A stretch of 64,000 bases of DNA from NCBI GenBank assembly GCA_035624425.1, contig DASPRN010000087.1, positions 184-64,183 on the forward strand, given 5' to 3'. Source of the DNA: Gaiellaceae bacterium (GTDB lineage Bacteria; Actinomycetota; Thermoleophilia; Gaiellales; Gaiellaceae). How positions within the stretch are numbered: the first letter of the stretch is position 1; each line of letters starts with the position of its first letter. Shown piece after piece: positions 32,953 through 49,319 of the stretch. The position numbers and the translations under genes were made by a program. Under the pieces are notes generated by a model. The model was given only the letters and a program-made list of their open reading frames with translations, was not told the DNA's origin and did no database searches.

Positions 32953-32979
32953 GTCACACATTCGGCACGGTCCCGTGCC
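32953..32979 (-). promoter_or_regulatory. GGCAC / GTGCC / GTGAC sites at 11-bp spacing upstream of phoH
   Basis: Minus strand reads GGCACgggaccGTGCCgaatgtGTGAC. Shares the 14-mer GTGCCGAATGTGTG with the rpsT site. Confidence 0.5.
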
Positions 32980-32998
32980 ACACGCGTGCGGATTTGCT

Positions 32999-33041
32999 CG
33001 ATACGATCGCCTCGGGGAGGAGGTTGGGCGTGCCGTAAACA
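32999..33041. repeat. 43-nt conserved element, copy 2
   Basis: CGATACGATCGCCTCGGGGAGGAGGTTGGGCGTGCCGTAAACA. Confidence 0.85.
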
Positions 33042-33071
33042 GCCCGCCCGACGGCTCGATGGTCGTGGCGG

Positions 33072-33841: not shown

Positions 33842-35021
33842 CGAGGATCCCCTCCTCCGTCACGGCCTCGCCGCGAACGGGCACGAGCTCGCCGACCCGC
33901 CCGCGAACGAGCCACGGCGAGTAGTCGTCGCCGTAGCCGCGACCCGGGCGGTCGACCAGCACGACGTCCTCGCGGCCGAGCTTCGACCGCCAGCGCTCCA
34001 GCGTCGCACGGCGAGAGCGCTCGCGCAGCCTGGCCCCCCGCTCTCGCTTCACCTCGCGAGGAACCGAATCGGCCAGCGCAGTTGCCGTTCCCGGGCGCGG
34101 CGAGTACGGAAAGACGTGGACCGAGGAGATGCCGGCCGCGTCGACCACCTCGAGCGTCCGGCGGAAGGCGGGCTCGTCCTCGCCGGGGAAGCCGACGATC
34201 ACGTCGGTCGTCAGGTTGAAGTCGTCGAGCCCGGCGACCCGCCGCAGGTACGTGGACGCGTCGTAGCGCCGCCCCATCGCACGGAGAACTCCGTCGTCGC
34301 CCGACTGGAGCGGGACGTGCAGGTGGCGTGAGACCGTCGGCGTCTCGCGCAGCGCCCTGACGAGCTCGCCGCTCAGATGGTTCACCTCGAGCGAGGAGAG
34401 CCGCAGCCGCGCGAGTCCGGGAACCGCCCCGACCGCCCGCACCAGCCCGGCAAGCGAGCACCCTGCGACGCGGTCGCGGTAGCAGCCGAGATTGATACCG
34501 GTCAGGACGACCTCGCGGTGGCCCTGGCGCACCCGCCGCCGCACCTCACCGAGAACGGCCTCGGCGCTGCGGCTCCGCGACGCCCCGCGGACGAGCGGGA
34601 TCACGCAGAAGGCGCACGAGAAGCTGCAGCCGTCCTGCACCTTGACGAACGCCCGCACGCGGTCGAGCCCGGTCTCGGCCCGAACGCAGCCGATCGGGCC
34701 GACATCGCGGGCCACGAAGTCGGGCGTGTCCTCGCTGGGCCGCGAGACCACGACGACATTCTCCGGGAGCCCCGCGAACCCGTCCGCGTCGAGGTTGGCG
34801 CCACAGCCGGTCACGTAGACGCGCGTATGGGTCCGCGCGGCTCGGGCCGCGGCGTGGCGTGACTTGCGCACCGCCTCGTGGGTGACGCAACAGGTGTTCA
34901 CGACAGCGATCTCGCCGTGCTCGAGCTCTGAATGCCCATCGGCAAGCAGGCGCTCGCGGATCGCCTGGGCGTCGGCGTACGAGACCTTGCAGCCGAGAAA
35001 GCGCACCGAAAAACCGGCCAC
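33834..35021 (-). CDS. mtaB: tRNA methylthiotransferase MtaB (radical SAM)
   Basis: N-terminal VNTCCVT, radical-SAM motif CSFSCAFC, and a C-terminal TRAM-like segment. Confidence 0.85.
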   Translation of the reverse strand: MAGFSVRFLGCKVSYADAQAIRERLLADGHSELEHGEIAVVNTCCVTHEAVRKSRHAAARAARTHTRVYVTGCGANLDADGFAGLPENVVVVSRPSEDTPDFVARDVGPIGCVRAETGLDRVRAFVKVQDGCSFSCAFCVIPLVRGASRSRSAEAVLGEVRRRVRQGHREVVLTGINLGCYRDRVAGCSLAGLVRAVGAVPGLARLRLSSLEVNHLSGELVRALRETPTVSRHLHVPLQSGDDGVLRAMGRRYDASTYLRRVAGLDDFNLTTDVIVGFPGEDEPAFRRTLEVVDAAGISSVHVFPYSPRPGTATALADSVPREVKRERGARLRERSRRATLERWRSKLGREDVVLVDRPGRGYGDDYSPWLVRGRVGELVPVRGEAVTEEGILAA

Positions 35022-35030
35022 GGGGCTGGG

Positions 35031-35036
35031 ACTCTA
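35031..35036 (-). promoter_or_regulatory. -10-like TAGAGT, 9 nt upstream of the mtaB GTG
   Basis: The TAG is the prmA stop codon. Confidence 0.4.
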
Positions 35037-35780
35037 CTCTGCGCGCCGAAACAGGTCGGCGGCCCATCCCTGTAGGACGCGCCGCTCGACGGCCTGGAAG
35101 CCGGCGAGCGCGGGCCGCTCCGACTCCAGGTAGCCGGAGGCGATGACGGCCCGGGTGGCCGCGTCCGGACGGAGCTGGGTGACCGAGGACTCGGAGATGT
35201 TGGCAACGATCACGTCGACCGGCGGCAGTGCGCCGGCGAGCGCGTCGGCGGAGCTCAGCTCGAGCTCGACGCCGTTTGCGCGCGCGTTCCTGCTCGTCGC
35301 CGCGAGCGCTGCCGGGTCGTGGTCGACGGCGAGGACCGGCGCGAAGCCCAGCCGCGCGGCTGCGATCGCGATCACGCCGGAGCCGCAACCGACGTCCACG
35401 AGGCTCGACGGCTCGAGCTCGAGCAGGAGCTCCAGGCAAAGCCGGGTCGTCGCGTGCCCGCCTGTCCCGAAGGCTCGACCGGGGTCGATGACGACGGCCT
35501 CGAGCTCCGTCGGCGGCGTCTCCCAGGGCGGCCCGACCCAGAGGCGACCGACCTGGATCGGGCGATGGAAATCCCGCCAGCGCTTGTCCCAGCCGTCGTC
35601 GACGCGGGCCGACGACACCGTGCTGAAGGCCGCCCACACGCGCTCCTCGCCACCCGCGTCGGTGTAGGCGGCGAGCTCGATGCCGTCGGCGAGGTCGCGC
35701 TCCTCGAAGCCTTCGGGGAAGAGCTCGATCATCAGAGCACGCGCCGCCTCGGCCCGCTCGGCGGGGACCACGGCTGCCAC
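35034..35780 (-). CDS. prmA: Ribosomal protein L11 methyltransferase
   Basis: DPGRAFGTGGHATT and VGCGSGVIAIAAA SAM-binding motif. Confidence 0.85.
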   Translation of the reverse strand: MAAVVPAERAEAARALMIELFPEGFEERDLADGIELAAYTDAGGEERVWAAFSTVSSARVDDGWDKRWRDFHRPIQVGRLWVGPPWETPPTELEAVVIDPGRAFGTGGHATTRLCLELLLELEPSSLVDVGCGSGVIAIAAARLGFAPVLAVDHDPAALAATSRNARANGVELELSSADALAGALPPVDVIVANISESSVTQLRPDAATRAVIASGYLESERPALAGFQAVERRVLQGWAADLFRRAE

Positions 35781-35794
35781 GCGGCGGAGCGGCC

Positions 35795-36910
35795 TCAGCG
35801 GAACGCGCTCTTCAGTCTCTGGAAGAACCCCTCGTCCCGGTACGTGTCGTCCCCCGCGCTCGCCTCGAACGACTCGAGCAGGGCCCGCTGTTCGTCGGTC
35901 AGGCGACGCGGGACCTGCACGTTCACGAGGATCCGCTGGTCACCGCGCCCGAAGCCCTGCAGGACCGGCATGCCGCGCCCGCGCAGGACGCGGACCTCGC
36001 CAGGCTGTGTGCCGGGCTCGAGCTCGAGCGCGTGGTCGCCGTCCAGCGTCGGGACCGAGAGCCTTGTCCCGAGCGCGGCCTGGGTCATCGTCAGGTCGAC
36101 GGTCGAGACGATGTCGTTCCCCTCGCGCACGAACCTCGGGTCCGGGCTGATCCGCACCTGGACGTAGAGGTCGCCCGAACGCCCGCCGAGTGCGCCGGCA
36201 TGGCCTTCGCCGGAAACGCGGATCTGCTGGCCGTCGTGGATCCCCGGCGGGATCTCGACCTCGAGCTTGCGCTCTTCGACCACGTGGCCCGACCCCCCAC
36301 ACTCGGCGCAGGGATGCTCTACCACGCGGCCGGCTCCACCGCATTGGGGACAGGTCTGCGAGCGGACGAACTCGCCGAACGCGGTCCGCGACACGTGCTG
36401 CAGGCGCCCGGCGCCGCCGCAGGTCGGACAGGGCACGGGCTCGGTTCCGGGCTCGGCGCCGCCACCCCCGCAGGTCGCGCAGGAGACGGTGACCGGGAAG
36501 GGGACGTCCCGCTTCGTTCCCTTCGCAGCCTCGGCGAGCTCGATCTCCACCTGGGCCGCGACATCCGCGCCGCGCGCCCGGCGCGGCCTGGTCGACACGC
36601 CGAAGAGGTCGTCGCCGAAGAAGGCGGCGAACAGGTCGGAGAGGCTGCCGAAGTCGAAGCTCGACGGCGTGAAGCCGCCGCTCCGCAGGCCGGCGTGGCC
36701 GAAGCGGTCGTAGAGCTCGCGCGTCTCGCGCTTGGAGAGCACCTCGTAGGCCTCGACGACCTCGCGGAAGCGCTCCTCGGCGTCCGGCTCGGAAGAGACG
36801 TCGGGATGGAGCTCGCGCGCCTGCCGGCGAAAGGCCTTCTTGATCTCCGCCTCGTCCGCGGAACGCGATACGCCGAGCAGCTCGTAGTAGTCACGCTGGG
36901 TGGAGGCCAT
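35795..36910 (-). CDS. dnaJ: Molecular chaperone DnaJ
   Basis: J domain with HPD, a G/F region, and four CxxCxGxG repeats. Confidence 0.95.
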
Positions 36911-36919
36911 TGGGAACCA

Positions 36920-36925
36920 AGCCTA
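36920..36925 (-). promoter_or_regulatory. -10-like TAGGCT, 9 nt upstream of the dnaJ ATG
   Basis: TAGGCT-TGGTTCCCA-ATG; no SD. Confidence 0.4.
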
Positions 36926-36949
36926 GCTCCGCGCTCAGGCGTCGCCTTC

Positions 36950-36971
36950 CAGGCATCGCTTGCGATGCCTG
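36950..36971 (+). repeat. Perfect 10-bp-stem hairpin CAGGCATCGC-TT-GCGATGCCTG
   Basis: First of two tandem units in the hrcA-dnaJ spacer. Confidence 0.55.
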
Positions 36972-37005
36972 CCCTCTAGGCGCCTAGCTCACTTCCCCAC
37001 GCCCG

Positions 37006-37027
37006 CAGGCATCGCTTGCGATGCTTG
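37006..37027 (+). repeat. Second copy CAGGCATCGC-TT-GCGATGCTTG
   Basis: The one difference gives a G.T pair on the plus strand (C.A on the minus strand). Same flank, GCCCTC. Confidence 0.55.
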
Positions 37028-37034
37028 CCCTCAG

Positions 37035-37057
37035 GATGTGCGGCTTCGCCGCGCATC
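37035..37057 (+). other. Hairpin GATGTGCGGC-TTC-GCCGCGCATC
   Basis: 10-bp stem with one T.G pair on the plus strand. Confidence 0.4.
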
Positions 37058-37104
37058 CGTCTGAAATGACCGGTCGACAGCGTCGCCGCTAGGGGCCGAG
37101 CTCA

Positions 37105-38151
37105 CTAGTTGTCCTCGTAGATCTCCTCGACGAAGCGCGAGAGCTCGTGCGCGGCCGACCGCACCGAGCGGAGCGCCTTCTCGTAGTCCATCCGCACCGG
37201 GCCAAGCAGGGTAACGGCGCCGAGCGTCCGGGTCGTGAGGCCGTAGGAGGCGCCGACGAGGGCGAGGTCGCGCAGCGCCGGATGGTCGAGCTCGGGGCCG
37301 ACGCGCACGAAGGGCCGCCGGGGGTCGAGCGCCTGGCTGACGACCTCGAGCAGCGCGGCGCGCTTCTCCAGCACCTCGACCAGGCGCTGATAGGCGTCGA
37401 GCTCCTCGGCACGGAGATCCTCGAGGAGCCCCGCGGTCCCTCCGACGTAGAGACCTTGCTCCTCGGAGACCAGCGCCTCGGAGAAGAGGGTCGCGACGGT
37501 CTCGAGGAAAGCCTGCTCGCGCACGCCGAGTCCAGGATCTTCGAGCCGGCGGCGGAGCAGGTGGCTACCGAGCTCCAGCCCCTGCACGCGGTCGTTCAGA
37601 TACTGCGCGGCCCAGTTCGCGAGACCCGGATCGACCGGCTCGGGGAAGCGGTAGACCCGCTTCGTAACGCTGCCGGTCGAGGCGATCACGACGACCATCA
37701 CCACCTGGGGCTGCAGGAGCAGGACCTCGACGTGGCGGACCGTCGCCGTGCCCAGCGGCGGGGCCGAGACCAGCGCGAGCAGGCGTGTCACGTCCGAGAG
37801 CATCTCGGTCGTCGCACGCAGGGCTGCGTCCACCTCGCTCCGGGCGGAGCGGAGGTCGAGCGGAAAGCCTTCCGGCTGTGGCTCGAGCTGCTCGAGCAGG
37901 CGGTCCGCGTAGTAGCGGTAGCCACGGTCGGTCGGCACGCGGCCCGCCGACGTGTGCGGGTGCATCAGCAGGCCGAGGGCCTCGAGCTCCGCCAGCTCGC
38001 TGCGCACGGTCGAGGGCGACACGTTCAGGCGCGTCCGCTCGACCAGGGTGCGCGAGCCGACTGGCTGCCCGGTTGCCACGTACTCCTCGACGACGCCGCG
38101 CAGGAGCGCCCGCTGCCGCGGACTGAGATCGATCTCGGCCGGGTCCCACAT
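37105..38151 (-). CDS. hrcA: Heat-inducible transcription repressor HrcA
   Basis: N-terminal winged helix LSPRQRALLRGVVEEYVATGQPVGSRTL; 348 aa. Confidence 0.92.
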   Translation of the reverse strand: MWDPAEIDLSPRQRALLRGVVEEYVATGQPVGSRTLVERTRLNVSPSTVRSELAELEALGLLMHPHTSAGRVPTDRGYRYYADRLLEQLEPQPEGFPLDLRSARSEVDAALRATTEMLSDVTRLLALVSAPPLGTATVRHVEVLLLQPQVVMVVVIASTGSVTKRVYRFPEPVDPGLANWAAQYLNDRVQGLELGSHLLRRRLEDPGLGVREQAFLETVATLFSEALVSEEQGLYVGGTAGLLEDLRAEELDAYQRLVEVLEKRAALLEVVSQALDPRRPFVRVGPELDHPALRDLALVGASYGLTTRTLGAVTLLGPVRMDYEKALRSVRSAAHELSRFVEEIYEDN

Positions 38152-38162
38152 CGTTTGCAGGG

Positions 38163-38168
38163 ATTTTA
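38163..38168 (-). promoter_or_regulatory. -10-like TAAAAT, 11 nt upstream of the hrcA ATG
   Basis: The TAA is the hemW stop codon. Implies a leader of about 4 nt. Confidence 0.45.
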
Positions 38169-39295
38169 GGCCAGGAGCTCCGCCGTGACGCCACCGCCGA
38201 GGAAGCGGCCGCGCTTCGTCAGCGCGAGCGTGTCGCTCGCCGGGTCGCCGCGGCGGACGAGGCCGAGCCGCTCGAGCCGCTCGACGGCCGACCAGTCGAC
38301 TGCCCGGTCGAGCCCGGTACCGAGCGCGAGCGGCTCGTCCAGGCGGAGCCCGAGCAGCACCCGCTCCGACCGCCGGACCGGCGCCGAGAGCTCCTCCACC
38401 TCCCGCGGGGGCGGCGTGCCCGCCGCGAGCGCCGCCAGGTAGGGGCCGAGGCGTGGTTTCGTCCGCCAGCGCCGTCCATGAATTGTCGAGACCGCGCCGA
38501 TGCCGAGGCCCAGGTAGTCGCGGCTCCGCCAGTAGGCGAGGTTGTGGCGCGAGCGCAGGTCGCGCCCGTCCGCGAGCTGCGGCTTCCGGCAGAAGTTCGC
38601 CGTCTCGTACCAGCGGTAGCCGGCTGCCGTCACGCGCGCGACGACGCGCTCGAAGTACGACTCCATCGCCTCGGCCTGGCGCGCGAGCTCGGCGCCGTGC
38701 GCGTGGGTGAAGCGCGTCCCCTGCTTCGCCTCCAGCTCGTAGCAGGAGAGGTGCTCCGGCTCCAGCGCGAGCGCCTCGCTCAGGTCGGCGTCGAGGTCGG
38801 CGGCGCCCTGGCCGGGGATCCCGTAGATGAGATCGAGCGAGATGTTGTCAAAGCCGACATCACGCAGAGCGTAGACGGCGCGCCGGACGTCGGCCGGGCT
38901 CGCGCGGCGCTCGAGCACCGCGAGCAGCCCCGGCTGGAAACTCTGCGCCCCGAGCGACACCCGCGTCACGCCGCTCTCGCGCAGCAGCGCCGCGACCACC
39001 GGCGTGACGGTCTCCGGGTTCGCCTCGACCGTGACCTCCTCGGCCGGCGGCAGGGCGTGCAACAGCCGCCGCAGCTCGCCGGGCGCGGTGAAGGTCGGCG
39101 TCCCGCCGCCGAGGAAGACGCTCTCGAGCCCCGGCGCCAGCACCTCGTGCTCGAGTGAGAGCTCGGCGAGCAGCGCGGTCACGTAGGCCTGGTGCTGACC
39201 GCCCCGCCCGACGACGGTGACGAAGTCGCAGTACCCGCAGCGCGACGCGCAGAACGGCAGGTGCACGTACAGGTGCCGGACCGCCCCGCCGGCGC

Positions 39296-39299
<4 letters not shown>
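38166..39299 (-). CDS. hemW: Radical SAM heme chaperone HemW (HemN-like)
   Basis: [17 protein letters not shown]. Start GTG 39299 overlaps the lepA stop as GTGA. The track extension to 39440 overlaps lepA. Confidence 0.88.
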
Positions 39300-41089
<1,790 letters not shown>

Positions 41090-41091
41090 TG

Positions 41092-41595
41092 CTACTGAGC
41101 GTAGCGGCGTTCCAGCCGCAGCAGCCGGTGCGGGACCCCCTCCTCCTCGATGTCGCCGACGTGCCGGAAGCCCGCCTTTTCGAACGCGCGCCAGGAGCGG
41201 CGATTGGACTCCTCGACAGTGGCGACGCAGGCGCTGGTCTCGGGGCGCGCGAAGACAACCTCCCGCGCGAACGCCCGCAGCACCTCGCGTCCGAGGCCGC
41301 GCCCGACGAGCTCCTCCTCGCCGATCAGCAGGTCGACACCGGCGAGGCCGGGCTCCGCGCCGACGAGCTCCTCCCACTCGGGGCTGTCGGCGACGAGGTA
41401 GGTCTGGATAAGTCCCGCCGGCCTGGCGTCGACGACGATGAGGTACTGGTCGGTGCGGCCCTCCTCGATTCCTTGCCGCCGCTTGTCGATCGCCTCGTCG
41501 ACCGAATCGCGCCACCAGCGGCGGACGTGCTCTCGCCCGAGCCAGCCCCGGACGAGCGGCAGGTCCTCCTCCCGGAGCGGCTGGACCTCGATCAC
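41092..41595 (-). CDS. GNAT-family acetyltransferase (aminoglycoside/siderophore N-acyltransferase-like)
   Basis: 167 aa. [30 protein letters not shown] motif. GTGA overlap with murJ. Confidence 0.7.
41098..41103 (-). promoter_or_regulatory. -10-like TACGCT, 8 nt upstream of the lepA ATG
   Basis: TACGCT-CAGTAGCA-ATG, inside the 3' end of the GNAT gene. Confidence 0.4.
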
Positions 41596-43157
41596 GGCTC
41601 GCGTGAGCGCAGCGACAGGAGCGCGTTGAGCTCACGCACGTGGAGCAGCCTGCAGGCCCCGAGGTAGAGCGCGGTCGCGGCGACGAGCGCCGGGAGCAGC
41701 GAGCCGAGCTGCCCGGCGAGCGAGCGGCCGAGCGCGTCGTCGAGTGGCAGCCAGACGAAGTAGGCGAGGGCGGCGACCGCGGAGGCGAGGACGATCCGCC
41801 CGAGGGCGGGCAGAGTCTGGCCGAGGTCGATCCTCCCGAGCCGGCGGCGCAGGAACCAGAGCAGCAGGCCGGCGCCGGCGACGTTCACGAGGCTGGTGGA
41901 GAGCGGAATCCCCCAGACGCCGAAGCCGTAGAACGCCCAGTCGAGCAATGCGTTGAGCCCGAGGTTCACGAGCGCGACGACGGTGGGTATCCAGTTCTCC
42001 TGCAGGCTGAAGAAGCCGCGGTTGAGCATCAGCATCCAGCCGTTGAAGACGAGCCCGCCGGAGAAGGCAGCGAGGGCGCCCGCGGTCACCGGGGTCTGGT
42101 CTGGGCGCCAATGCCCGTGCTGGTAGACGATCCGGATGATCGGCTCGGCGAGCACGGCCGTGACCACGCCGGCGGGGATGAGCAGGAAACCGATCTGGCG
42201 CAGGCCGAGATTGACGCGGTCGCGGAAACCGGCCAGGTCCCCGCGCGCCGCCAGACGCGAGAGCGATGGGAAAAGCACTGTCGCGATCGCGACTGAGAAC
42301 ATGCCCTGCGGGAGCATGTAGAGGCGGAAGGCCTTGTCGATCGCGGTCGGCGCAAGGAGCGGGTCGATCAGGCGCGAGGCGAAGATCGAGTCGACGACGG
42401 CGTTGAAGTTGATCAGCCCGAGTCCGATGGTCACGGGGATCATCAGCCTGAAGACGTTCCGGACAGCGGGGTCGCGCCAGTCGAGCACGAGCTGGAGGCG
42501 CCCGTCCAGGCCACGGAGCCAGGGCACGGGTAAGAGCACCTGGATCAGCGTCCCGACCAGGACCGAGCCGGCGTAGATGTAGAGCTGGGTGTCGACGTTG
42601 TCGGTCCGGGGGACGCCGAGGACGAGGCCCAGGATGATCGCCAGGTTCCAGAACACCGGCGTGATGGCGGGAATCGCGAACTGCTCGTAGCTGTTGAGGA
42701 TCCCGACGATCACGCCCGAGACGCCGAGCAGCGCGACGATCGGGAAGAGGATCCGCGAGAGCGTGATCGCGAGCTCCTTATCGCCTCCGGGGTTTCCGAA
42801 GGGCGCGATGATGAGCGGGGCGAGGAGGATCAGAAGCGCAGTGAGCGCGCCGAGACCGAGGAGCATCAGCCAGAAGAGGCTCGAGGCGACGCGCCAGGCG
42901 CGCTTGCGGTCGCCCTTCTCCAGCAGCTCGCTGAAGACGGGCACGAACGCGGAGGAAAGCGCCTGGTCGGCGACCAGCGAGCGGAAGAGGTTCGGCACCT
43001 GGAAGGCGACCGTGAAGGCGTTGATCTTGCCCTGGGCGCCGAAGTAGTAGGCAGCTACGACCTCGCGGACGAGGCCGAGGATGCGGGAGATGCCGGTGGC
43101 AAGCGAGAAGATCGCCGTCGACCACGCGAGCCGTCGGCCGCGAGGCGGCTCGTCCAC
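41592..43157 (-). CDS. murJ: Lipid II flippase MurJ
   Basis: [35 protein letters not shown]; 14-TM-type profile; GTG start. Confidence 0.9.
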
Positions 43158-43164
43158 GGGGCCG

Positions 43165-43170
43165 AGTATA
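43165..43170 (-). promoter_or_regulatory. -10-like TATACT, 7 nt upstream of the murJ GTG (leaderless)
   Basis: TATACT-CGGCCCC-GTG; no SD. Confidence 0.5.
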
Positions 43171-43282
43171 GGAAGCGACTCAGCCGGTGCCGCGTCGCAA
43201 GAACCGGGGCGGCTTTGCGGGGCGCTGGTACCCGTTGACCTCCTCCCCGCTATGAGCCTATTGGCGGGATACGCACGGGTGG

Positions 43283-43309
43283 GTGACCTGAATGTGCCGA
43301 ATGTGTGCC
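43283..43309 (+). promoter_or_regulatory. Three direct GTGMC sites at exact 11-bp spacing upstream of rpsT
   Basis: GTGACctgaatGTGCCgaatgtGTGCC, starting at 43283, 43294 and 43305. Confidence 0.5.
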
Positions 43310-43389
43310 ACTTGGGGGGCCCGCCGCCGGTGAGCTCGGGGCGGTGGCTGCTACCATCGGCCGGCCCGCTCCGCGGGCTCTTTCACGCT

Positions 43390-43656
43390 ATGCCGAACAT
43401 CAAGCAGCAGAAGAAGCGCGTCCGCACAGCGGCGCAGGAGCGCCTCGAGAACCTGCGCTACGCCTCGACCGTGAAGACGCTCACGCGCCGGTTGCGAACG
43501 GCCGTCGCCGACGGCGATCGCGACCGCGTCGCCGCGGACCACCGCGAGCTCGTGCGCTGGATCGACAAGGCTGCGGCCAACGGCGCCATGCACCGCAACA
43601 CCGCCGCGCGCAAGAAGGCGCAGGCCGCGAAGCTCGTCTCCGGAAGCTCCTCCTAG
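43390..43656 (+). CDS. rpsT: 30S ribosomal protein S20
   Basis: MPNIKQQKKRVRTAAQERLENLRYASTVKT; 88 aa. The upstream part of the track ORF (from 43081) is non-coding. Confidence 0.93.
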   Translation: MPNIKQQKKRVRTAAQERLENLRYASTVKTLTRRLRTAVADGDRDRVAADHRELVRWIDKAAANGAMHRNTAARKKAQAAKLVSGSSS

Positions 43657-43664
43657 CGCAGCGC

Positions 43665-44648
43665 TCAGGCCGTCGCGGCCCCTCGCGCGACGTCGATCAG
43701 CGCCCGGGTGAACTCGAGCTCGCCCGGGAGCTTGCTGCCGCCCTTCAGCGCGTGGTCGAGCCGCGCCAGCCGGACGATCGCCTCGTCGAGCTCGTCCTCG
43801 CTGAAGTTTCCGGCCTGCTCGTAGAGCTTCTGGACGTAGTAGCGGTTTCGCTTCAGCCGCTCGGCCGCCGCGGCCGGCGGAACCCCTTCGGCGTCGAGGC
43901 GACGGCACTCGCGGACGCGCCCGACGTGCGACGTCATCAGGCCGGCCGTCCGCAGGAGAACGTCCCGGGTTGCGTCGCCGGAGCGCTCGATGATCCGCTC
44001 GCTTGCGGCGAGGACACCGGGGACGTCCCTGGCTCCCCACGCGTCCGTCAGGTCGAAGGGCGGGGCTTCGGCGCGGGCCGGTACCAGCGCGGCCACCTCC
44101 CGCTCGCCGATCCGCTCCCCGGCGGCCCAGGTCGCCAGCTTGTCGATCTCGGTTGCGAGCTCGTCGGCGTTCTCGCCGACGAGCTCGACGATCGCCCGGG
44201 CTGCCTCCGGGTCGACGAGCACTCCGCGCTCGCGGAGCTGGGCCTCGACCCAGCGCGGCAAGTCGGCCTTGCGTCCGCGCTTGGGCAGGTCGTAGACGAG
44301 CACCTCGCCCGCCTTCGCGACGGCTTTCGCGAGCGGCGAGTCGCCCTTGACCTCGTCCCCCACAAGCACGAGGACCGACGTCGGCGCCGGGCGTGGGAGG
44401 TACTCGCCGAGAGCCTTCAGGTCGGCGGCTTTCCAGCGCTGGACGTGCTCGATGATCACCAGGCGGCGCTCGACCGCAAAGAGGCCAAGGGCGTTGCAGG
44501 CCGCGACGGCGTCCTCGCCGCTCGCTTCCTGGGCGGAGAGGATCTCCGTCGCGTCGTCGCCGATTCGGTCGCGGAGCCGACGCAGGGCGCGGCCGACCTT
44601 CGGACGATCGGTGCCGGTGATCAGGTAGACCGGAGCGAGCTCTGCCAC
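43665..44648 (-). CDS. holA: DNA polymerase III delta subunit
   Basis: APVYLITGTDRPKV.. N-terminus and gene position after comEC. Start is GTG 44648 or TTG 44657. Confidence 0.75.
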   Translation of the reverse strand: MAELAPVYLITGTDRPKVGRALRRLRDRIGDDATEILSAQEASGEDAVAACNALGLFAVERRLVIIEHVQRWKAADLKALGEYLPRPAPTSVLVLVGDEVKGDSPLAKAVAKAGEVLVYDLPKRGRKADLPRWVEAQLRERGVLVDPEAARAIVELVGENADELATEIDKLATWAAGERIGEREVAALVPARAEAPPFDLTDAWGARDVPGVLAASERIIERSGDATRDVLLRTAGLMTSHVGRVRECRRLDAEGVPPAAAAERLKRNRYYVQKLYEQAGNFSEDELDEAIVRLARLDHALKGGSKLPGELEFTRALIDVARGAATA

Positions 44649-46072
44649 CGCCGCCAAGCATAGGCGGCGCCGAGCGAGGCGAGCAGGACGACGGCCAGCA
44701 GGCCGCGGCCGGAGCGAAGCTGTGCTCCGGGCAGGCCGCCGAAGAACCGGGCGCAGCCGGCCAGATAGGCGGCGCACCAGCCGTTGAGCCAGGCGATCGT
44801 CGCGGCCGCGGGAGGGAAGACGAGCGCCGCAGCGGCGGCGGCGAACGCCAGATAGAGCAGCGGGGCGACGGCGGGCTCCGCGAGCGCGTTCGCCGGCACC
44901 GTCAGCAGCGGCACCGCGTGAAACTGGAGCCAGAGGATCGGAGCGGTCACGAGGCCGCAGGCGGTGGAGACGGCCAGCGCGGCAGCCAGCTTCGCGGGCA
45001 GCGGGTAGCCCTCGAGGCGGGCCAGGAACCGCGGCACGAGCAGGAAGATCGCCGCAACCGCGGCAAACGAGAGCTGGAAGCCGGCGTCGAGCACGTCGTA
45101 CGGGTTCCACGCAAGGAGGGCAAGCGCCGCGAGCAGGAGGAAGTACCAGCGGTCGGCGGATCGTGCGGCAAGCCACGCGAGCGAGCCAAGGGCTCCGACC
45201 ACCCCGGCCCGGACGACGGACGGCTGGGGCCCGACTGCGAGCACGTACCCGCCGATCGCGGTCAACGCCCCGACCTGCCCCAGCCAGCGCGGCAGCCCGA
45301 TCAACCAGGCGAGGGCGAGCGCGCCCGCGGCGACCAACGCCACGTTCTGGCCGGAAACCGCCAGGAGATGGTAGAGGCCCGAAGCGCGGAAGCGGTTGCG
45401 CAGGTTCGCCGAGAGCGCCTGCTCGTCACCGAGAACGACACCCTCGACGACTCCGCGGCGCTCGCCGCTCAGCCTGCTTGCGGTCGATCGCGCGAGCGCG
45501 GCGCGCAGTCGGTCGGCGACGCCCCAGAGGCCGCCCCGGTGTCCGACCAGCTTCCAGCGGTCGGCGCGGAGAACGACGTGAACGCCTTGGTGCCTGAGCC
45601 AGGTGCGCTCGTCGAAGCCGTGCGACGCCGGCCGAGGCAGGCGGACCGTTGTGATCGCCTCGAGCACGGCTCCCTGCGGAGGCGCGCGACCCAGTGGAAG
45701 CTCGAGCAAGACGGGCTCGTGGAAGCGCAGCCGGCCGAAACGCCTCACTTCCGCCGGAAGCCGCAGTTGGAACGGGCTTACGCGTGAAGGTCCGGTCACC
45801 ACCAGTTGTGAGCGCTCTGCCGTGCCCACGCGCGGGAGAAGAACGCTGCGGTCGAGGGCCTCAAGGCGGGCGCTTCCCCACCACCAGCCGGTCAGGACGA
45901 GAGCCGCCGCCAGCAGTGGCGCGCGACGTGACGCGTCGCGCATCGCGGCCGCGAGGAGACTGGCTCCGGCCGCGAGCCCAATGGCCGCCCGCGGCAGGCG
46001 CGCAAGATTCGCCGCAACGATGCCTATGCAGATCGCGGCCGCGTAGACGTGAGGCGAGCGCCAGTCGTTCAC
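44621..46072 (-). CDS. comEC: ComEC/Rec2-family DNA internalisation channel (no beta-lactamase domain)
   Basis: Polytopic, with SGLYHLLAVSGQNVALV. GTG 46072 overlaps the comEA stop as GTGA. The Arg-rich track extension is rejected. Confidence 0.8.
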   Translation of the reverse strand: MNDWRSPHVYAAAICIGIVAANLARLPRAAIGLAAGASLLAAAMRDASRRAPLLAAALVLTGWWWGSARLEALDRSVLLPRVGTAERSQLVVTGPSRVSPFQLRLPAEVRRFGRLRFHEPVLLELPLGRAPPQGAVLEAITTVRLPRPASHGFDERTWLRHQGVHVVLRADRWKLVGHRGGLWGVADRLRAALARSTASRLSGERRGVVEGVVLGDEQALSANLRNRFRASGLYHLLAVSGQNVALVAAGALALAWLIGLPRWLGQVGALTAIGGYVLAVGPQPSVVRAGVVGALGSLAWLAARSADRWYFLLLAALALLAWNPYDVLDAGFQLSFAAVAAIFLLVPRFLARLEGYPLPAKLAAALAVSTACGLVTAPILWLQFHAVPLLTVPANALAEPAVAPLLYLAFAAAAAALVFPPAAATIAWLNGWCAAYLAGCARFFGGLPGAQLRSGRGLLAVVLLASLGAAYAWRRWQSSLRST

Positions 46073-46668
46073 GGGACGACCAGGTCCCGGAGCTGATCCA
46101 GCCGTTTCGGGCCGATTCCCGAGACCGCGTCGAGCTCGTCGACCGAGCTGAAGGCTCCGTGCTTCGTGCGGTAGTCGAGAATCTTCTGGGCCATCACCGG
46201 TCCGATCCCGGGCAAGGTCTCGAGCTGCTCCAGCGTCGCGGTGCTCAGCTGCACGGGAGCGGCGGGCCCTGCGCCGGCGCCGGATGCGCTCGGCGCAATG
46301 GTCGCCCCGGCTGCACCGCGCTTGGGCACGACGACCTGCTCGCCATCGGCCAATGGCGCTGCGAGGTTCACTTGTGCGAGCTCGGCTTTGCCGGTCGCGC
46401 CCCCCGCCTGCGCGACCGCGTCCGCGATCCGCGAGCCCTGCGGCAGCCGGTAGAGACCCGGTTGCCTGACGGCGCCGACGACGTCCACGACGACGCGGGC
46501 GGCCGAAGCCCCGGTCGCGCTCGCGCCGGGAGCCGGCGGCGGGGGGAGCGGGGCCGCCGGCGTGGTCGTTCCCGCCGGCAGCACGTAACGGACCGCGAGC
46601 AGGAGCAGCGCGAGCGCGACCGCGGCGGCGAGGAGGGCGCGCCGCCGCTGGAGGAGGAACTCCGGCAT
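46069..46668 (-). CDS. comEA: ComEA-type DNA receptor (TM anchor, SLBB-like region, tandem helix-hairpin-helix)
   Basis: LETLPGIGPVMAQKILDYR..LDAVSGIGPKRLDQL. Start ATG 46668 precedes the membrane anchor. The 41-codon upstream extension has low GC3. Confidence 0.82.
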   Translation of the reverse strand: MPEFLLQRRRALLAAAVALALLLLAVRYVLPAGTTTPAAPLPPPPAPGASATGASAARVVVDVVGAVRQPGLYRLPQGSRIADAVAQAGGATGKAELAQVNLAAPLADGEQVVVPKRGAAGATIAPSASGAGAGPAAPVQLSTATLEQLETLPGIGPVMAQKILDYRTKHGAFSSVDELDAVSGIGPKRLDQLRDLVVP

Positions 46669-46691
46669 GGCTCGAGGGTGCCCGAGGAGAT

Positions 46692-46751
46692 GTGACGCGT
46701 GGGTGACCTCTTCGTGGCGGAGGTGCCACGAAATCGGCACACAAACGGCAC
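46692..46751. promoter_or_regulatory. 60-bp dyad of six GTGNC sites (three on each strand, 11-bp phasing) upstream of comEA
   Basis: Plus strand: GTGAC 46692, GTGAC 46703, GTGGC 46714. Minus strand: GTGGC 46729, GTGCC 46740, GTGCC 46751. Mirror symmetry about 46721/46722. Confidence 0.55.
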
Positions 46752-46820
46752 ATTCGGGCCGCGGGGAGCGGGTACCGTCCCTAGCCCCCACCCACCCCGG
46801 GGGCGCGCGCGTGAACTAGT

Positions 46821-46898: not shown

Positions 46899-49277
46899 CT
46901 AGACGACCAGGTTCACGAGGCGGCCGGGGACGACGATCGTCTGGCGGATCTCCTTCCCGTCCAGATGGGCCTGGACGCGCGGCGAGGCGAGTGCGCGCTC
47001 GACCAGCTGCTCCTCCGACTCGCTCGCCGAGGCCTCGACCCGGTCGCGCACCCTGCCGTTCACCTGGATCACCAGCTCGAACGTCTCGCGGGTCAGCAGC
47101 GATTCGTCCGCCACGGGCCACGGCTGCTCCCACAGCCGCTCACGCCCGAGTGCCGTCCACAGCTCCTCGGCGATGTGCGGCGCGTAGGGCTGGATCAGGG
47201 AGACCGCAGTCTCCGCAGCGAAGCGCGCACCCGGCGCCGACGGATCCCGTCCGAGCTCGTTCACCAGCTCCATCACGGCCGCGATCGGCGTGTTGAACAC
47301 GAAGCGCCGCCCGATGTCGTCGGTCACCTTGGCGATCGTCTCGTGCGTTTTCCGCACCAGCGCGCCGTCCCCACCACCCTCACCCGCCGAGGCGGCTTCG
47401 TGCACGATTCGCCACAGCCGCCGAAGGAAGCGCGCGATCCCCTCGACGCCCTCCTCGGTCCAGTCCATGTCCTGGTCGGCCGGCCCGACGAAGAGGATGT
47501 ACAGGCGCACGGCATCGGCGCCGTACATGTCGGCCAGCTGGTCGGGCGCGGTCACGTTCCCGCGCGACTTCGACATCTTCGTCCCGCCCTGGCGCACCCA
47601 GCCCTGGTGGAACAGCCGGGCGAACGGCTCGCGGAACCCGACCAGGCCGAGCTCGTTCAGCACTTTGACCCAGAAGCGCGAGTAGAGCAGGTGCCCGGTC
47701 GCGTGGTCGATGCCGCCCACGTACTGGTCGACCGGCATCCAGAAGTCGACCAGCTCGCGCGAGAACGGCGCCTGGTCGTTCCCCGGGTCGCAGTAGCGCA
47801 GGAAGTACCAGGACGAGTCGACGAAGGTGTCCATCGTGTCGGCCTCGCGCTGCCCGGGGCCGCCGCACGACGGGCAGGGGACGTTCAGCCACTCCTCGTT
47901 CGAGGCAAGCGGCGGCTTGCCCTTTGGGCGGTAGTCCTCGACCTCCGGAAGCAGCACCGGCAGCTCGTCGTCCGGCACCGGCACGATCCCGCATTCGCTG
48001 CAGTAGACGATCGGGATCGGGCACCCCCAGTAGCGCTGGCGCGAGAACCCCCAGTCGCGCAGCCGGAAGCTGACTGCGGGCCGGCCGCGCCCCAGCGAGC
48101 CGAGCCACTCGACGATCGCGCGCTTCGCCTCCTCGACCGGCTGCCCGGAAAACTCTCCGGACTCGACGAGCACCCCCAGCTCCTCGTCGACCACCTGCCG
48201 GACCGGCAGGCCGAACTGCTCGGCGAACTCGCGGTCGCGCTCGTCGTGTCCCGGCACGGCCATGATCGCGCCGGTCCCGTACTCCATCAGCACGTAGTCG
48301 GCGACCCAGACCGGGATCTCCTCGCCGGTTACAGGGTTCGTCGCGGTCAGCCCGGTGTCGACTCCGGTCTTCTCCTCGGCGGCGGCCCGCACCTCGCCGC
48401 GCTTTGCCAACGCGTGCTTGACGTACTCCCGGATCTCCTCGCCGTGCGGCGAGCGCCCGACCATCGTGTCGACCAGCGGATGCTCGGGCGCGAGCACGAA
48501 GAAGGTCGCCCCGAAGACCGTGTCCGGCCGAGTCGTGAAGACGGCAACGTCCTCATCGAGCTCCGAGATCCGGAACAGCAGCTCGGCGCCCTCCGAGCGG
48601 CCGATCCAGTTGCGCTGGATCGTGATCGTGCGCTCGGGCCAGTCGAGCAGCGCATGGTCCTCCAGCAGCGCGTCCGCATACGCCGTGATCCGGAAGAACC
48701 ACTGCTCCATCTTGCGAGCCTCGACCACGGTGCCGCAGCGCTCGCAGCGGCCGTCGATCACCTGCTCGTTCGCGAGCACCGTCTGGTCGTGCGGGCACCA
48801 GTTGACCGGCGCCTCCTTGCGGTAGGCAAGGCCCTTCTCGAAGAAGCGCAGGAACAGCCATTGGGTCCAGCGGTAGTAGGCGGGATCGTGGGCGGCGATC
48901 ACCCGGTCCCAGTCGATCGCCCAGCCCAGCCGGTGCATCTGGCGCTCGATGTTGGCGATGTTGCGCTCGGTGATCTCGCGCGGGCTCCCGCCCTCGCGGA
49001 TGGCCGCGTTCTCGGCCGGCAGGCCAAACGAGTCCCAGCCCATCGGGCGCAGCACGCGCAACCCGTGCCGCCGGCGGAAGTGCGTGAGGACGTCGCCCAG
49101 CGTGTAGTTGAGGACATGCCCCATGTGCAGGTCGCCGGACGGGTAGGGCAGCATCTCGAGCTGGTAGAACTTTTGCCGCTCCTCGCCGGGCCCGGGGTCG
49201 TCGGTGTAGAAGGCGCGAGCGTCCTCCCAGACCCGCTGCCACTTCGCCTCGATCGCCTGTGGGTCGTACGTCTCCAT
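46899..49277 (-). CDS. leuS: Leucyl-tRNA synthetase
   Basis: HMGH (HIGH) and KMSKS motifs. Start ATG 49277 has GGAGG 5 nt upstream. Confidence 0.96.
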   Translation of the reverse strand: METYDPQAIEAKWQRVWEDARAFYTDDPGPGEERQKFYQLEMLPYPSGDLHMGHVLNYTLGDVLTHFRRRHGLRVLRPMGWDSFGLPAENAAIREGGSPREITERNIANIERQMHRLGWAIDWDRVIAAHDPAYYRWTQWLFLRFFEKGLAYRKEAPVNWCPHDQTVLANEQVIDGRCERCGTVVEARKMEQWFFRITAYADALLEDHALLDWPERTITIQRNWIGRSEGAELLFRISELDEDVAVFTTRPDTVFGATFFVLAPEHPLVDTMVGRSPHGEEIREYVKHALAKRGEVRAAAEEKTGVDTGLTATNPVTGEEIPVWVADYVLMEYGTGAIMAVPGHDERDREFAEQFGLPVRQVVDEELGVLVESGEFSGQPVEEAKRAIVEWLGSLGRGRPAVSFRLRDWGFSRQRYWGCPIPIVYCSECGIVPVPDDELPVLLPEVEDYRPKGKPPLASNEEWLNVPCPSCGGPGQREADTMDTFVDSSWYFLRYCDPGNDQAPFSRELVDFWMPVDQYVGGIDHATGHLLYSRFWVKVLNELGLVGFREPFARLFHQGWVRQGGTKMSKSRGNVTAPDQLADMYGADAVRLYILFVGPADQDMDWTEEGVEGIARFLRRLWRIVHEAASAGEGGGDGALVRKTHETIAKVTDDIGRRFVFNTPIAAVMELVNELGRDPSAPGARFAAETAVSLIQPYAPHIAEELWTALGRERLWEQPWPVADESLLTRETFELVIQVNGRVRDRVEASASESEEQLVERALASPRVQAHLDGKEIRQTIVVPGRLVNLVV

Positions 49278-49291
49278 GTCTGCCTCCGGAT

Positions 49292-49319
49292 ACAAAAAGA
49301 CCTCTCGTTGCGAGAGGCC
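49292..49319 (-). terminator. Intrinsic-terminator-like hairpin plus U tract inside the leuS 5' leader
   Basis: Minus strand reads GGCCTCTCG-CAA-CGAGAGGTC followed by TTTTTGT, 5 nt before the GGAGG SD. The outer G.U pair works only on the minus-strand RNA. Confidence 0.55.

What the first reader, a model, noticed from the sequence alone, without database searches (positions are those of the whole stretch)
46692..46751. 60-bp dyad-symmetric array of six GTGNC pentamers at 11-bp phasing upstream of comEA-comEC-holA
The plus strand carries GTGAC (46692), GTGAC (46703) and GTGGC (46714). The minus strand carries GTGGC (46729), GTGCC (46740) and GTGCC (46751). Each set has exact 11-bp spacing, and the two sets are mirror images about 46721/46722. 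The inner pair also forms an 8-bp hairpin TTCGTGGC-GGAGGT-GCCACGAA. The array lies 24-83 bp upstream of the comEA ATG and is the most AT-rich stretch of that gap. One-helical-turn phasing of direct repeats is the classic architecture of winged-helix (OmpR/PhoB-type) response-regulator sites. From memory, actinobacterial GlnR/AfsQ1-type sites are described as GTnAC-n6-GTnAC; that needs checking. A regulator of the DNA-uptake genes is an attractive reading.
Basis: partly seen in the sequence, partly recalled or inferred. Interest (0 to 1): 0.65.

Follow-up and report, generated by a model that had tools for sequence, protein, structure and literature searches.

The report
Phased promoter array upstream of comEA
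The 60-bp array is real: it is the shared control region of two back-to-back promoters, built from a previously undescribed, lineage-specific module of GNCAC pentamers spaced one DNA turn apart that also precedes other DNA-uptake genes in soil Actinomycetota of the order Gaiellales.

Summary
Runs of three or more such pentamers occur only at period 11 (3 in the window, about 0.04 expected).

The array is not a comEA-only operator. It is one copy of a recurrent promoter module: [GNCAC-N6] x2-3, GTSAC, N6 (aGACAC/cCACGC), GTG(A/C)(C/G), N11, then a -10 box (T/C)AnnnT.
- In about 20 Gaiellales comEA orthologues the -10 box lies 6-7 nt before the start codon, so comEA is probably leaderless.
- Five copies in the window score 30-63 against a shuffled maximum of 9.
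- Among 92 non-identical metagenome hits, 72% have TAnnnT at exactly the same offset.
- The same module precedes comFC-like, comM-dprA and ssb genes, and also era, lepA, hemD and short RNA-like transcripts.

The dyad arises because a second module faces the other way. It ends at TACCGT (46773-78) and drives a conserved C-rich transcript. Relatives have 4+4 units and this genome has 7, so the hairpin is window-specific.

The best reading is an activator-binding array with pho-box geometry and an MtrA/GlnR/PhoP-like half-site, GTCAC(A). The binding protein is not identified. WhiA/WhiB-type or RNA-polymerase-intrinsic recognition remain open.

The parts
46692..46729 (-). comEA-side module, four phased units read on the minus strand. 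P4 is GTGGC (46729..25), P3 GCCAC (46718..14), P2 GTCAC (46707..03) and P1 GTCAC (46696..92). P2-N6-P1 reads GTCACC-cacgc-GTCACA.
   Evidence: The layout is aligned at fixed spacing in about 20 comEA orthologues. A PWM built without this site scores it 29-30, against a shuffled maximum of 9-20.
46675..46680 (-). -10-like hexamer CACCCT, 11 nt downstream of P1 and 6 nt upstream of the comEA ATG.
   Evidence: CAnnnT lies 6-7 nt before the start codon in 18 of 18 aligned orthologues, several of them with an extended TGn. There is no Shine-Dalgarno sequence. The regex used to align them required [CT]AnnnT, but C49 and G47 were invariant without being required.
46069..46668 (-). comEA coding sequence (199 aa). 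The ATG at 46668 is the predicted transcription start of a leaderless mRNA. comEC and holA follow downstream.
   Evidence: Pfam finds HHH_3 and SLBB. Orthologues start at MPEFLLQRRR.
46725..46762 (+). Divergent plus-strand module: GCCAC (46725, shared with the comEA module), GGCAC (46736), GGCAC (46747) and degenerate GCCGC (46758).
   Evidence: The region 46725-46752 scores 23.5 with the P3-P1 PWM. It is homologous to class C modules in L001, L044, L061, L104, L123, L136 and L156, where the two modules lie back to back as 4+4 units.
46773..46778 (+). -10 hexamer TACCGT of the plus-strand promoter. The spacer here is N10; relatives have N11.
   Evidence: The same hexamer and downstream sequence occur in 9 or more metagenome or genome loci.
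46779..46815 (+). Conserved start of the plus-strand transcript, CCCTAGCCCCCACCCACCCCGGGGGCGCGCGCGTGAAC. The minus strand carries its G-rich complement. The transcript runs antisense towards the leuS 3' end.
   Evidence: It is conserved in 14 loci. In L061 and L098 the same element is the leader of lepA. In other loci the G-rich strand is the one transcribed from a module.
43255..43309 (-). Second copy of the module: GGCAC-acattc-GGCAC-attcag-GTCAC-ccaccc-GTGCG-N11-TAGGCT. It lies in the murJ/rpsT divergent gap and is followed by GGGGAGGAGG.
   Evidence: PWM score 43. Conserved in L001, L003, L007, L011, L013, L044 and L061.
32953..33007 (+). Third copy: GTCAC-acattc-GGCAC-ggtccc-GTGCC-acacgc-GTGCG-N11-TACGAT. 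It lies between yqeY and phoH and drives a short GGGGAGGAGG... transcript.
   Evidence: PWM score 63. The sequence was read.
25001..25055 (+). Fourth copy, ending in TACGAT and followed by the same GGGGAGGAGGTTGGGyGTGCCGTAAACA transcript start.
   Evidence: PWM score 40. The sequence was read.
30383..30437 (-). Fifth copy: GTCAC-agcatt-GTCAC-aaacag-GTCAG-acccat-GTGCG-N11-TACGCT. It lies upstream of the era GTPase gene.
   Evidence: PWM score 30. Conserved in L045, L048 and L135. The sequence was read.

Best explanation
The array is the shared upstream region of two divergent promoters. On the minus strand, four pentamers at 11-bp phase end 11 nt before a weak -10 box (CACCCT). That box lies 6 nt before the comEA ATG, so comEA-comEC-holA is probably transcribed as a leaderless mRNA. 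On the plus strand, four more units (one shared with the comEA side) end at TACCGT and start a conserved C-rich transcript.

Each half is a copy of a lineage-specific promoter module of Gaiellales-like Actinomycetota. In promoter coordinates the pentamers sit at -28..-24, -39..-35, -50..-46 and -61..-57. All lie on one face of the helix, and the two proximal units straddle a poor -35 region.

The most likely mechanism is as follows. A head-to-tail oligomerising winged-helix activator of the OmpR/PhoB family, with an MtrA/GlnR/PhoP-like half-site GTCAC(A), binds the units. It recruits the sigma-A RNA polymerase holoenzyme as PhoB does at pho boxes. In this way it co-regulates DNA-uptake and DNA-processing genes (comEA-comEC, comFC, comM-dprA, ssb) with other housekeeping genes and small transcripts.

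Shown: the motif, its phasing, its conservation and its fixed coupling to a -10 box.
Inferred: the transcription starts, activation rather than repression, and the protein family.

The confidence of 0.45 is for the whole statement, including the protein family. That the array is a promoter-coupled cis-regulatory module made of two divergent copies I hold at about 0.9.
For: - Period-11 specificity, and excess over chance.
- Fixed-register conservation upstream of comEA in about 20 species-level genomes, with CAnnnT 6-7 nt before the start codon.
- Five full-length PWM hits in the window score 30-63, against a shuffled maximum of 8.9.
- A metagenome scan used only the distal 16-mer plus a loose third pentamer and returned at least 120 loci. 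In 92 non-identical ones the unconstrained part is conserved, and TAnnnT starts at offset 49 in 66 and offset 48 in 4. The mean at any other offset is 0.046.
- Nothing is conserved upstream of the module.
- Downstream genes include comFC-like, comM followed by dprA, ssb and comEA, mostly leaderless.
- Half-site and phasing match published OmpR-family sites: MtrA (PMC13189361), Mtb PhoP TCACAGC-n4-TCACAGC (PMC4832192), and GlnR a-b-a-b with four 5-mers and n6 spacers (PMC10704036). PhoB/PhoP bind direct-repeat units head to tail (PMC4415409).
- From my own knowledge of the E. coli pstS promoter, the TGTCA cores of its two pho boxes lie at the same four positions relative to the -10 box.
Against: - No protein was tested, and no response-regulator gene lies in the window. 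The one MtrA-like regulator found in the fetched loci (L120) has no module at its promoter.
- P3 and P4 are mostly GGCAC, which does not fit GTnAC.
- P1 is often GTGAC or GTGCG, the opposite orientation to P2-P4. P2-N6-P1 therefore also reads as an inverted repeat.
- In 39% of instances the N6 segment provides GACA with a canonical 17-nt spacer, that is, a -35-like element. Part of the conservation may therefore be core promoter.
- The segment aGACACG also resembles the WhiA motif GACAC/GACACGCC (PMC10243135 and PMC13473873).
- About one module per 10 kb is a very large regulon for a two-component regulator.
- No transcription start has been mapped. The only RNA run found was uninformative.
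- Metagenome hits include many orthologous loci, so they are not independent. The enrichment for com genes was not quantified.
Confidence: 0.45

Rival explanations
1. WhiA/WhiB-type activation. A sigma-region-4-like helix-turn-helix protein (WhiA C-terminal domain) reads the GNCAC/GACAC(G) units. A WhiB-like protein bridges it to sigma-A at promoters with a poor -35.
For: - The WhiA motif is GACAC in Streptomyces and GACACGCC in M. tuberculosis. The module's -35-proximal consensus is aGACACGTG, and cACACGCG in front of comEA, matching 6 of 8 positions.
- The WhiA target sepX is leaderless.
- The Mtb WhiA/WhiB2 regulon covers DNA replication, recA, cell division and ribosomal proteins. This resembles the gene set here (holA operon, ssb, dprA, era, lepA, murJ).
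- WhiA is conserved throughout Gram-positive bacteria.
Against: - WhiA binds one asymmetric site, with variable spacing and orientation relative to the -35. Here there are four units in strict 11-bp register at a fixed distance from the -10.
- GACAC proper occupies the -35 position itself, where sigma region 4 would sit.
- The dominant pentamers are GGCAC and GTCAC, not GACAC.
- The window's comEA site has no GACAC.
Confidence: 0.2
2. The module is read by the RNA polymerase holoenzyme itself. N6 is the -35 element (nnGACA, 17-nt spacer). The upstream 11-bp-phased units act as an UP-element-like pair of alpha-CTD sites. This would be a lineage-specific strong-promoter architecture with no dedicated regulator.
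For: - GACA lies at the canonical 17-nt spacing in 39% of instances.
- P3 and P4 (-46 to -61), with their A/T-richer tails (acATTc, gAAgcc), lie where UP subsites lie.
- The coupling to the -10 box is strict.
- The module is used for abundant-looking short transcripts and housekeeping genes.
- An alpha-CTD was seen bound to non-A/T-rich DNA in Streptomyces.
Against: - Information content is high at G/C positions of GGCAC and GTCAC, which is unlike minor-groove A-tract recognition.
- The conserved GTG at -28..-26 lies inside the spacer.
- Many promoters in the same window lack the module altogether, for example rpsT TACCAT, lepA TACGCT and murJ TATACT.
- The comEA copies have neither a GACA nor a good -10 box, as expected for activator-dependent promoters.
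Confidence: 0.15
3. The dyad acts at the RNA level. It would be a long imperfect hairpin in read-through transcripts from leuS, serving as a terminator, insulator or processing site between leuS and comEA.
For: - The minus-strand RNA folds at -31.5 kcal/mol with z = -4.7.
- The minus strand gains G-U pairs relative to the plus strand (z = -2.4).
- L001 also folds well (z = -3.1).
Against: - There is no U-tract and no terminator-like site, and no Rfam match.
- The pairing register differs between the window and L001. The hairpin is absent where the intergenic region is short (L006, z = -1.5; L003, L007), although the pentamers are kept.
- Conservation follows DNA phasing and distance to the -10 box, not base pairing.
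- The other four copies in the window are not dyads.
Confidence: 0.07
4. The array is an operator for a dimeric repressor that binds the inverted repeat GTCAC-N6-GTGAC over the -35 region. The upstream units would be auxiliary sites.
For: - In most comEA orthologues P2-N6-P1 is a near-palindrome (GTCACacacgtGTGAC) centred at about -31.5.
- This position would occlude sigma region 4.
Against: - In the window and L011 the pair is a direct repeat (GTCAC...GTCAC). In most non-comEA copies P1 is GTGCG.
- A repressor does not need a strictly fixed distance to the -10 box, nor three further phased units in a single orientation.
Confidence: 0.1

Closest known systems
PHO boxes bound by PhoB (E. coli) or PhoP (Streptomyces)
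   Same: - 11-bp direct-repeat units bound head to tail (PMC4415409).
- Up to four units in phase.
- The proximal unit ends about 10-11 nt upstream of the -10 box and takes the place of a good -35 (own knowledge of the pstS promoter).
- Each unit has a conserved 5-7-bp core followed by an A/T-richer tail.
   Different: - The core is GNCAC, not CTGTCAT or GTTCACC.
- The associated genes are not phosphate genes, apart from a copy next to phoH.
- P1 is frequently inverted.
- The regulator is unknown.
MtrA sites of Actinobacteria
   Same: - The half-site is GTCAC(A), repeated at 11 bp. The window's GTCACC-cacgc-GTCACA fits GTnAcC-n5-GTnAcn and GTCACAgcg.
- An MtrA site lies at -34 of the mtrA promoter.
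- MtrA has a large regulon covering the cell cycle and cell envelope.
   Different: - MtrA sites are described as one or two half-sites with no fixed distance to the -10 box.
- GGCAC units and the ACATTC tail are not part of the MtrA consensus.
- Whether this organism has MtrA, or whether it binds here, is unknown.
GlnR boxes (a-b-a-b) and AfsQ1 sites
   Same: Four 5-mers separated by n6, with an a-site GTnAC. The S. venezuelae form is GTnAC-n6-GTnAC.
   Different: - No GaAAC b-site is present.
- No nitrogen-assimilation genes lie downstream.
- AfsQ1 is a Streptomyces regulator.
WhiA/WhiB co-activation
   Same: - A GACAC(G)-like element lies next to a weak -35.
- Targets are leaderless.
- Target genes concern DNA replication and cell division.
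   Different: WhiA binds a single asymmetric site with variable spacing and orientation. It does not bind a phased four-unit array.
Competence regulons with a shared promoter element (CRP-S/Sxy in Gammaproteobacteria, ComK boxes in Bacillus)
   Same: One cis-element precedes comEA(-comEC), comF, comM, dprA and ssb. ComK boxes are also helically phased (own knowledge).
   Different: - The sequence is unrelated, and the CRP spacing TGTGA-N6-TCACA is not met.
- The module here also serves many non-competence genes.
- Transformation has not been shown for this lineage.

Membership tests
OmpR/PhoB-type response-regulator site (generic) | Two or more direct repeats with a 10-11-bp period | tested here: met
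   Runs of 3 or more units occur only at period 11. P4-P2 share one orientation in nearly all copies.
OmpR/PhoB-type response-regulator site (generic) | All units in tandem (head-to-tail) orientation | tested here: inconclusive
   P1 is GTGAC or GTGCG (inverted) in most copies and GTCAC in the window. The pentamer GTSAC is nearly self-complementary, so its orientation is ambiguous.
OmpR/PhoB-type response-regulator site (generic) | Class II position: the proximal unit overlaps the -35 region at a fixed distance from the -10 box | tested here: met
   P1 is followed by N11 and then the hexamer in 66 of 92 independent-sequence instances and in all 5 window copies. The -10 box and the transcription start are themselves inferred.
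OmpR/PhoB-type response-regulator site (generic) | Bound by a phosphorylated winged-helix regulator | not testable with these tools
   No binding data exist, and no regulator gene lies in the window.
MtrA site | GTnAcC-n5-GTnAcn, or a direct repeat of GTCACAgcg | tested here: met
   The window has GTCACC-cacgc-GTCACA. P3 and P4 (GGCAC) do not fit.
MtrA site | An MtrA orthologue is present and binds | not testable with these tools
   Only 64 kb of the genome is available. The MtrA-like regulator in L120 (45% identity to a remembered Mtb MtrA sequence) has no module at its promoter.
GlnR box | a-site GTnAC plus b-site GaAAC, upstream of nitrogen genes | tested here: not met
   No GAAAC units are present. 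The downstream genes are comEA, era, murJ and others.
WhiA motif | GACAC (GACACGCC in Mtb) near a sigma-A promoter | tested here: inconclusive
   GACA lies at offsets 28-31 in 36 of 92 instances. The comEA copies have cACACGCG or cCCACGCG. The strict phasing and fixed spacing are unlike WhiA.
CRP/GlxR site | TGTGA-N6-TCACA (GTG-N8-CAC) | tested here: not met
   The window's central pair is GTG-N10-CAC and is not conserved. The conserved pair is everted, TCAC-N6-GTGA.
PafBC RecA-NDp promoter | tTGTCRgtg-N8-TAnnnT | tested here: not met
   The GTG of P1 lies 13 nt, not 8 nt, before the hexamer, and there is no TGTC. The consensus is from my own knowledge.
Intrinsic terminator or known RNA family | GC-rich hairpin plus U-tract, or an Rfam model match | tested here: not met
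   No terminator-like sites were found. Rfam gave no match at E <= 1 or at gathering thresholds.

The most novel reading that the evidence does not exclude
The module is the signature of a previously unknown master regulon of Gaiellales-type soil Actinomycetota. One array-binding activator would switch on the whole DNA-uptake and processing set (comEA-comEC, comFC, comM-dprA, ssb) as leaderless mRNAs, together with families of small G-rich and C-rich RNAs. That would amount to a competence-like programme in an abundant, almost uncultured soil lineage, with a promoter code not described before.
Probability: 0.2. Interest if true: 0.8.

Novelty: new variant of a known kind. Interest (0 to 1): 0.6.

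Why it matters
Gaiellales are abundant in soils and peat but have almost no genetics. A 55-nt, high-information promoter module would give a direct computational handle on gene regulation in this lineage. The module can be recognised by sequence alone. It recurs about once per 10 kb in this window and in at least 120 metagenome loci.

Its presence before comEA-comEC, comFC, comM-dprA and ssb suggests that these competence homologues are co-regulated. Their regulation and function in Actinomycetota are largely unknown. Co-regulation would make natural transformation in soil Actinomycetota a testable proposition.

The module also marks several unannotated short transcripts (GGGGAGGAGG-type and C-rich or G-rich), which may be new small RNAs.

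Tried and rejected
- Rfam on 44000-50000 at E <= 1, on the whole window, and on 16 related loci found only tRNAs.
- Consensus sigma-70 promoter and terminator scans of 46400-47100 found nothing. This is expected for -35-less, C-starting -10 boxes.
- CRP-like, sigma-54, PafBC RecA-NDp, BldD, DnaA-box and parS readings were rejected on spacing or sequence.
- An RNA run from soil (X11) laid on 42900-47100 gave fragmentary contigs, most only 90-99% alike, with no usable ends.
- A search for a response regulator in the window found none.
- A tblastn search used an MtrA sequence written from memory against all fetched DNA. It found one OmpR-family gene (L120) with no module at its promoter.
- A literature search for the exact motif string returned only unrelated primer sequences. 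A search for Gaiella/Thermoleophilia promoter motifs returned nothing relevant. MtrA combined with comEA returned nothing relevant.
- Upstream regions of the Streptomyces and Mycobacterium comEA loci (L020-L034) could not be aligned, because those proteins have long, uncertain N-termini. These loci show no period-11 runs.
- The idea that the module is a mobile repeat was rejected. Conservation stops sharply at both ends, and the downstream sequence differs by class.

Full report
**What is there**

The window is 70% G+C and comes from a Gaiellaceae-like Actinomycetota genome recovered from peat. The genes around the finding lie on the minus strand:
- leuS (49295..46899)
- a 230-bp gap
- comEA (ATG at 46668; HHH_3 and SLBB domains)
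- comEC and holA
- a convergent rpsT, then murJ

The array is the least G+C-rich part of the gap, 63% against 78%.

**Is it chance?**

No.
- Triples of GTGNC at 11 bp are expected 0.013 times per window and occur three times.
- With the strand-neutral class (GNCAC or GTGNC), runs of three or more occur only at period 11: 46692 (x6), 43283 (x3) and 32953 (x3). All are intergenic.
- There are none at periods 7-10 or 12-15. A Markov-2 model expects 0.04.
- In 26 related Gaiellales loci there are eight such runs at period 11, against 0-2 at any other period. There are none in the Streptomyces, Mycobacterium and other outgroup loci.

**Comparative anatomy upstream of comEA**

A search with the ComEA protein returned 37 loci, about 26 of them Gaiellales. 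The following architecture is kept in fixed register when read in the comEA direction:

(P4 GTCAC)-N6-(P3 GGCAC)-N6-(P2 GTCAC)-N6 [a/cCACGc]-(P1 GTGAC)-N11-CAnnnT-N6/7-ATG/GTG

- The hexamer has the A and T of a -10 box, and several genomes add an extended TGn.
- It ends 6-7 nt before the start codon, and there is no Shine-Dalgarno sequence. comEA is therefore most simply a leaderless mRNA whose first base is the A of the ATG. This is inferred, not mapped.
- In promoter coordinates the pentamers lie at -28..-24, -39..-35, -50..-46 and -61..-57.
- Where leuS ends close by (L003, L006, L007), the stop codon abuts P4. The conserved element is therefore the proximal four units.
- The window's hairpin is not conserved. 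Relatives have GTCAC-gctttc-GGCAC where the window has GTGGC-acctcc-GCCAC.

**The module is not specific to comEA**

- A PWM built from the orthologues without the window's own site finds the same layout four more times in the window. Each copy is followed after N11 by a canonical TAnnnT.
- A full 55-nt PWM trained on metagenome instances scores the five copies 30-63, against a shuffled maximum of 8.9.
- The five copies are:
  - 46729..46675 (-), comEA
  - 43309..43255 (-), in the murJ/rpsT gap
  - 30437..30383 (-), upstream of era
  - 32953-33007 (+), between yqeY and phoH
  - 25001-25055 (+)
- The murJ-side and era copies are conserved in relatives.

**Metagenome scan**

- I searched metagenome contigs with only the distal part of the module, GKCACACATTCGGCAC-N6-GNSMC.
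- In 92-96 non-identical instances the unconstrained part is conserved:
  - C21
  - P2, G-T-[C/G]-A-C
  - N6, A-g-A-C-a-C
  - P1, G-T-G
  - a T-pair at offsets 41-42
- TAnnnT starts at offset 49 in 66 of 92 and at offset 48 in 4 more. The mean at any other offset is 0.046.
- Nothing is conserved upstream of the module.
- This strict coupling to a -10 box is the strongest single result. It shows the array is part of promoters, not a free-standing operator or an RNA element.
- In 39% of instances N6 supplies GACA with a 17-nt spacer, a -35-like core.

**Why the window looks like a dyad**

- One class of metagenome hits continues with TACCGT-CCCTAACCCCCACCCACCCAGGGGCGCGCGTGAAC. That is the plus strand of the window at 46773-46815.
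An N10 spacer and TACCGT (46773-78) follow.
- It should start a C-rich transcript at about 46785, running antisense to the leuS 3' end.
- In L001, L044, L061, L104, L123, L136 and L156 the two modules lie back to back as 4+4 units in one continuous 11-bp register.
- The window has exactly one unit (11 bp) fewer, so unit 46725-29 is shared by both modules.
- This shift creates the window-specific hairpin centred at 46721/22. The midpoint between the two -10 boxes is 46727.
- The fold energy is a consequence of the DNA dyad. Minus-strand RNA folds at -31.5 kcal/mol with z = -4.7. L001 folds in a different register and L006 does not fold significantly.

**What the module drives**

- Downstream of module copies in the metagenome and genome loci are:
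  - comEA
  - a ComFC-like protein (double zinc ribbon plus phosphoribosyltransferase), in many loci
  - a ComM-like Mg-chelatase ATPase followed by DprA
  - SSB
  - a UDG-NUDIX protein
  - era, lepA, hemD, dapA, gatA and moaC
- The com genes and ssb are mostly leaderless, starting directly after the -10 box.
- The DNA-uptake and processing set is conspicuous, but it is not the whole set. Many hits are orthologous loci from related genomes, so I did not compute an enrichment statistic.
- Several copies drive short transcripts with no ORF and no Rfam match.

**Mechanism**

- Four units lie on one helical face. Each has a 5-bp core and an A/T-richer tail. The proximal two straddle a weak -35, and the distance to the -10 box is fixed.
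- This is the geometry of PhoB at pho boxes. PhoB and PhoP bind direct-repeat units head to tail (PMC4415409). The coincidence of positions with the E. coli pstS promoter is from my own knowledge.
- The core GTCAC(A) matches published actinobacterial OmpR-family half-sites:
  - MtrA, GTnAcC-n5-GTnAcn or GTCACAgcg, with a site at -34 of the mtrA promoter (PMC13189361)
  - Mtb PhoP, TCACAGC-n4-TCACAGC (PMC4832192)
  - GlnR, with four 5-mers and n6 spacers (PMC10704036)
- I therefore favour an OmpR/PhoB-type activator, with MtrA-like as the leading guess because of its half-site and its broad housekeeping regulon.
- This is inference. There is no regulator gene in the window, and the one MtrA-like gene in the fetched DNA has no module at its promoter.
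- Rivals that the data do not exclude:
  - WhiA/WhiB-type activation. The -35-proximal aGACACG resembles GACAC/GACACGCC, and the regulon themes overlap. However, WhiA sites are single and variably placed.
  - Recognition by the holoenzyme itself, with a GACA -35 plus UP-like phased units.
  - A palindrome-binding repressor.
  - An RNA hairpin.

**Comparison with the literature and novelty**

- The exact motif string and Gaiellales promoter motifs are absent from the searchable literature.
- I file the array as a new variant of a known kind, a phased direct-repeat activator array. I do not file it as a member of the MtrA, GlnR, PhoP or WhiA regulons.
- The GlnR b-site, the CRP spacing and the RecA-NDp spacing were tested and not met. 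MtrA and WhiA membership cannot be tested without binding data.

**Verdict**

It needs reframing as two divergent copies of a widespread, lineage-specific promoter module. Interest is moderate to high (0.6).

Noticed in passing
window 25056-25095 (+), 33008-33045 (+), 43254..43215 (-); about 30 related loci (e.g. L040, L058, L080, L093, L106): A family of short transcripts starts right after module promoters with GGGGAGGAGG followed by YYGGGCG(A/T)RCCGWAC... They have no consistent ORF; the window copies contain only GTG-CCG-TAA. They have no Rfam match. They often face the 3' end of a convergent gene (yqeY) or lie upstream of genes with their own leaderless promoters (murJ TATACT, purD and hutH TAGACT). 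They may be a multi-copy small RNA.
   Followed up: partly
window 46779-46815 (C-rich on +, G-rich on -); 14 loci: The conserved element is CCCTAACCCCCACCCACCC(A/G)GGGG...GCGCGTGAAC. Its complement, GGGGTGGGTGGGGGCTAGGG, is a canonical G-quadruplex-type run on the leuS/comEA coding strand. In different loci a module promoter transcribes either the C-rich strand (leader of lepA, or antisense to leuS) or the G-rich strand (leader of hemD).
   Followed up: partly
window 46821-46862 (+): Three copies of ACGGAGGCTCGC, two adjacent and one after a 6-nt gap, each containing GGAGG. They lie inside the predicted plus-strand transcript, between the C-rich element and the leuS stop codon.
   Followed up: no
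L038, L042, L047, L060, L063, L116 and others (comFC-like genes): The conserved reading frame of the ComFC-like gene (W-L-V-D-L-V-F-P-P-R-C, supported by synonymous changes) has no canonical in-frame start codon upstream (GCG TGG). The GTG at the predicted leaderless transcription start is out of frame. The true start is unresolved.
   Followed up: partly
window 43353-43392 (+): rpsT has its own -10 box, TACCAT (43353-58), and a conserved leader hairpin GGCCCGC-n3/4-GCGGGC just before the ATG (43390), with no Shine-Dalgarno sequence. It is conserved in L001, L003, L007, L015, L017 and L018. The inverted module lies about 45 nt upstream of this -10 box.
   Followed up: partly
window 30382..30317 (-): The era leader contains GGGAGGCGGGTGGTAAGCCCCACCCTGGGTGGGGGG, a hairpin plus G-runs. 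Many module-driven mRNAs in the metagenome loci begin with a 5' GGGG...CCCC hairpin followed by GGGGG or GGAGG.
   Followed up: no
L039:9470-9730 (-), L043, L121: An 85-95-aa protein family (MAKAATPWGPAELVEE...GDKRFASVVQLLE...) with no Pfam match is expressed directly, or after a short leader, from a module promoter in three different contigs.
   Followed up: no
window 24420-24995 (-): A roughly 190-aa ORF (GTG at 24995), with high third-position G+C, begins 17 nt from the 25k module on the opposite strand. By eye it resembles a truncated TrpC/IGPS-like protein. No Pfam result was obtained for it, because both calls that included it failed.
   Followed up: no
window 44621-46069 (-): The comEC reading frame after comEA is only about 480 codons, which is short for ComEC. 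It may lack the C-terminal metallo-beta-lactamase domain. Domains were not checked.
   Followed up: no
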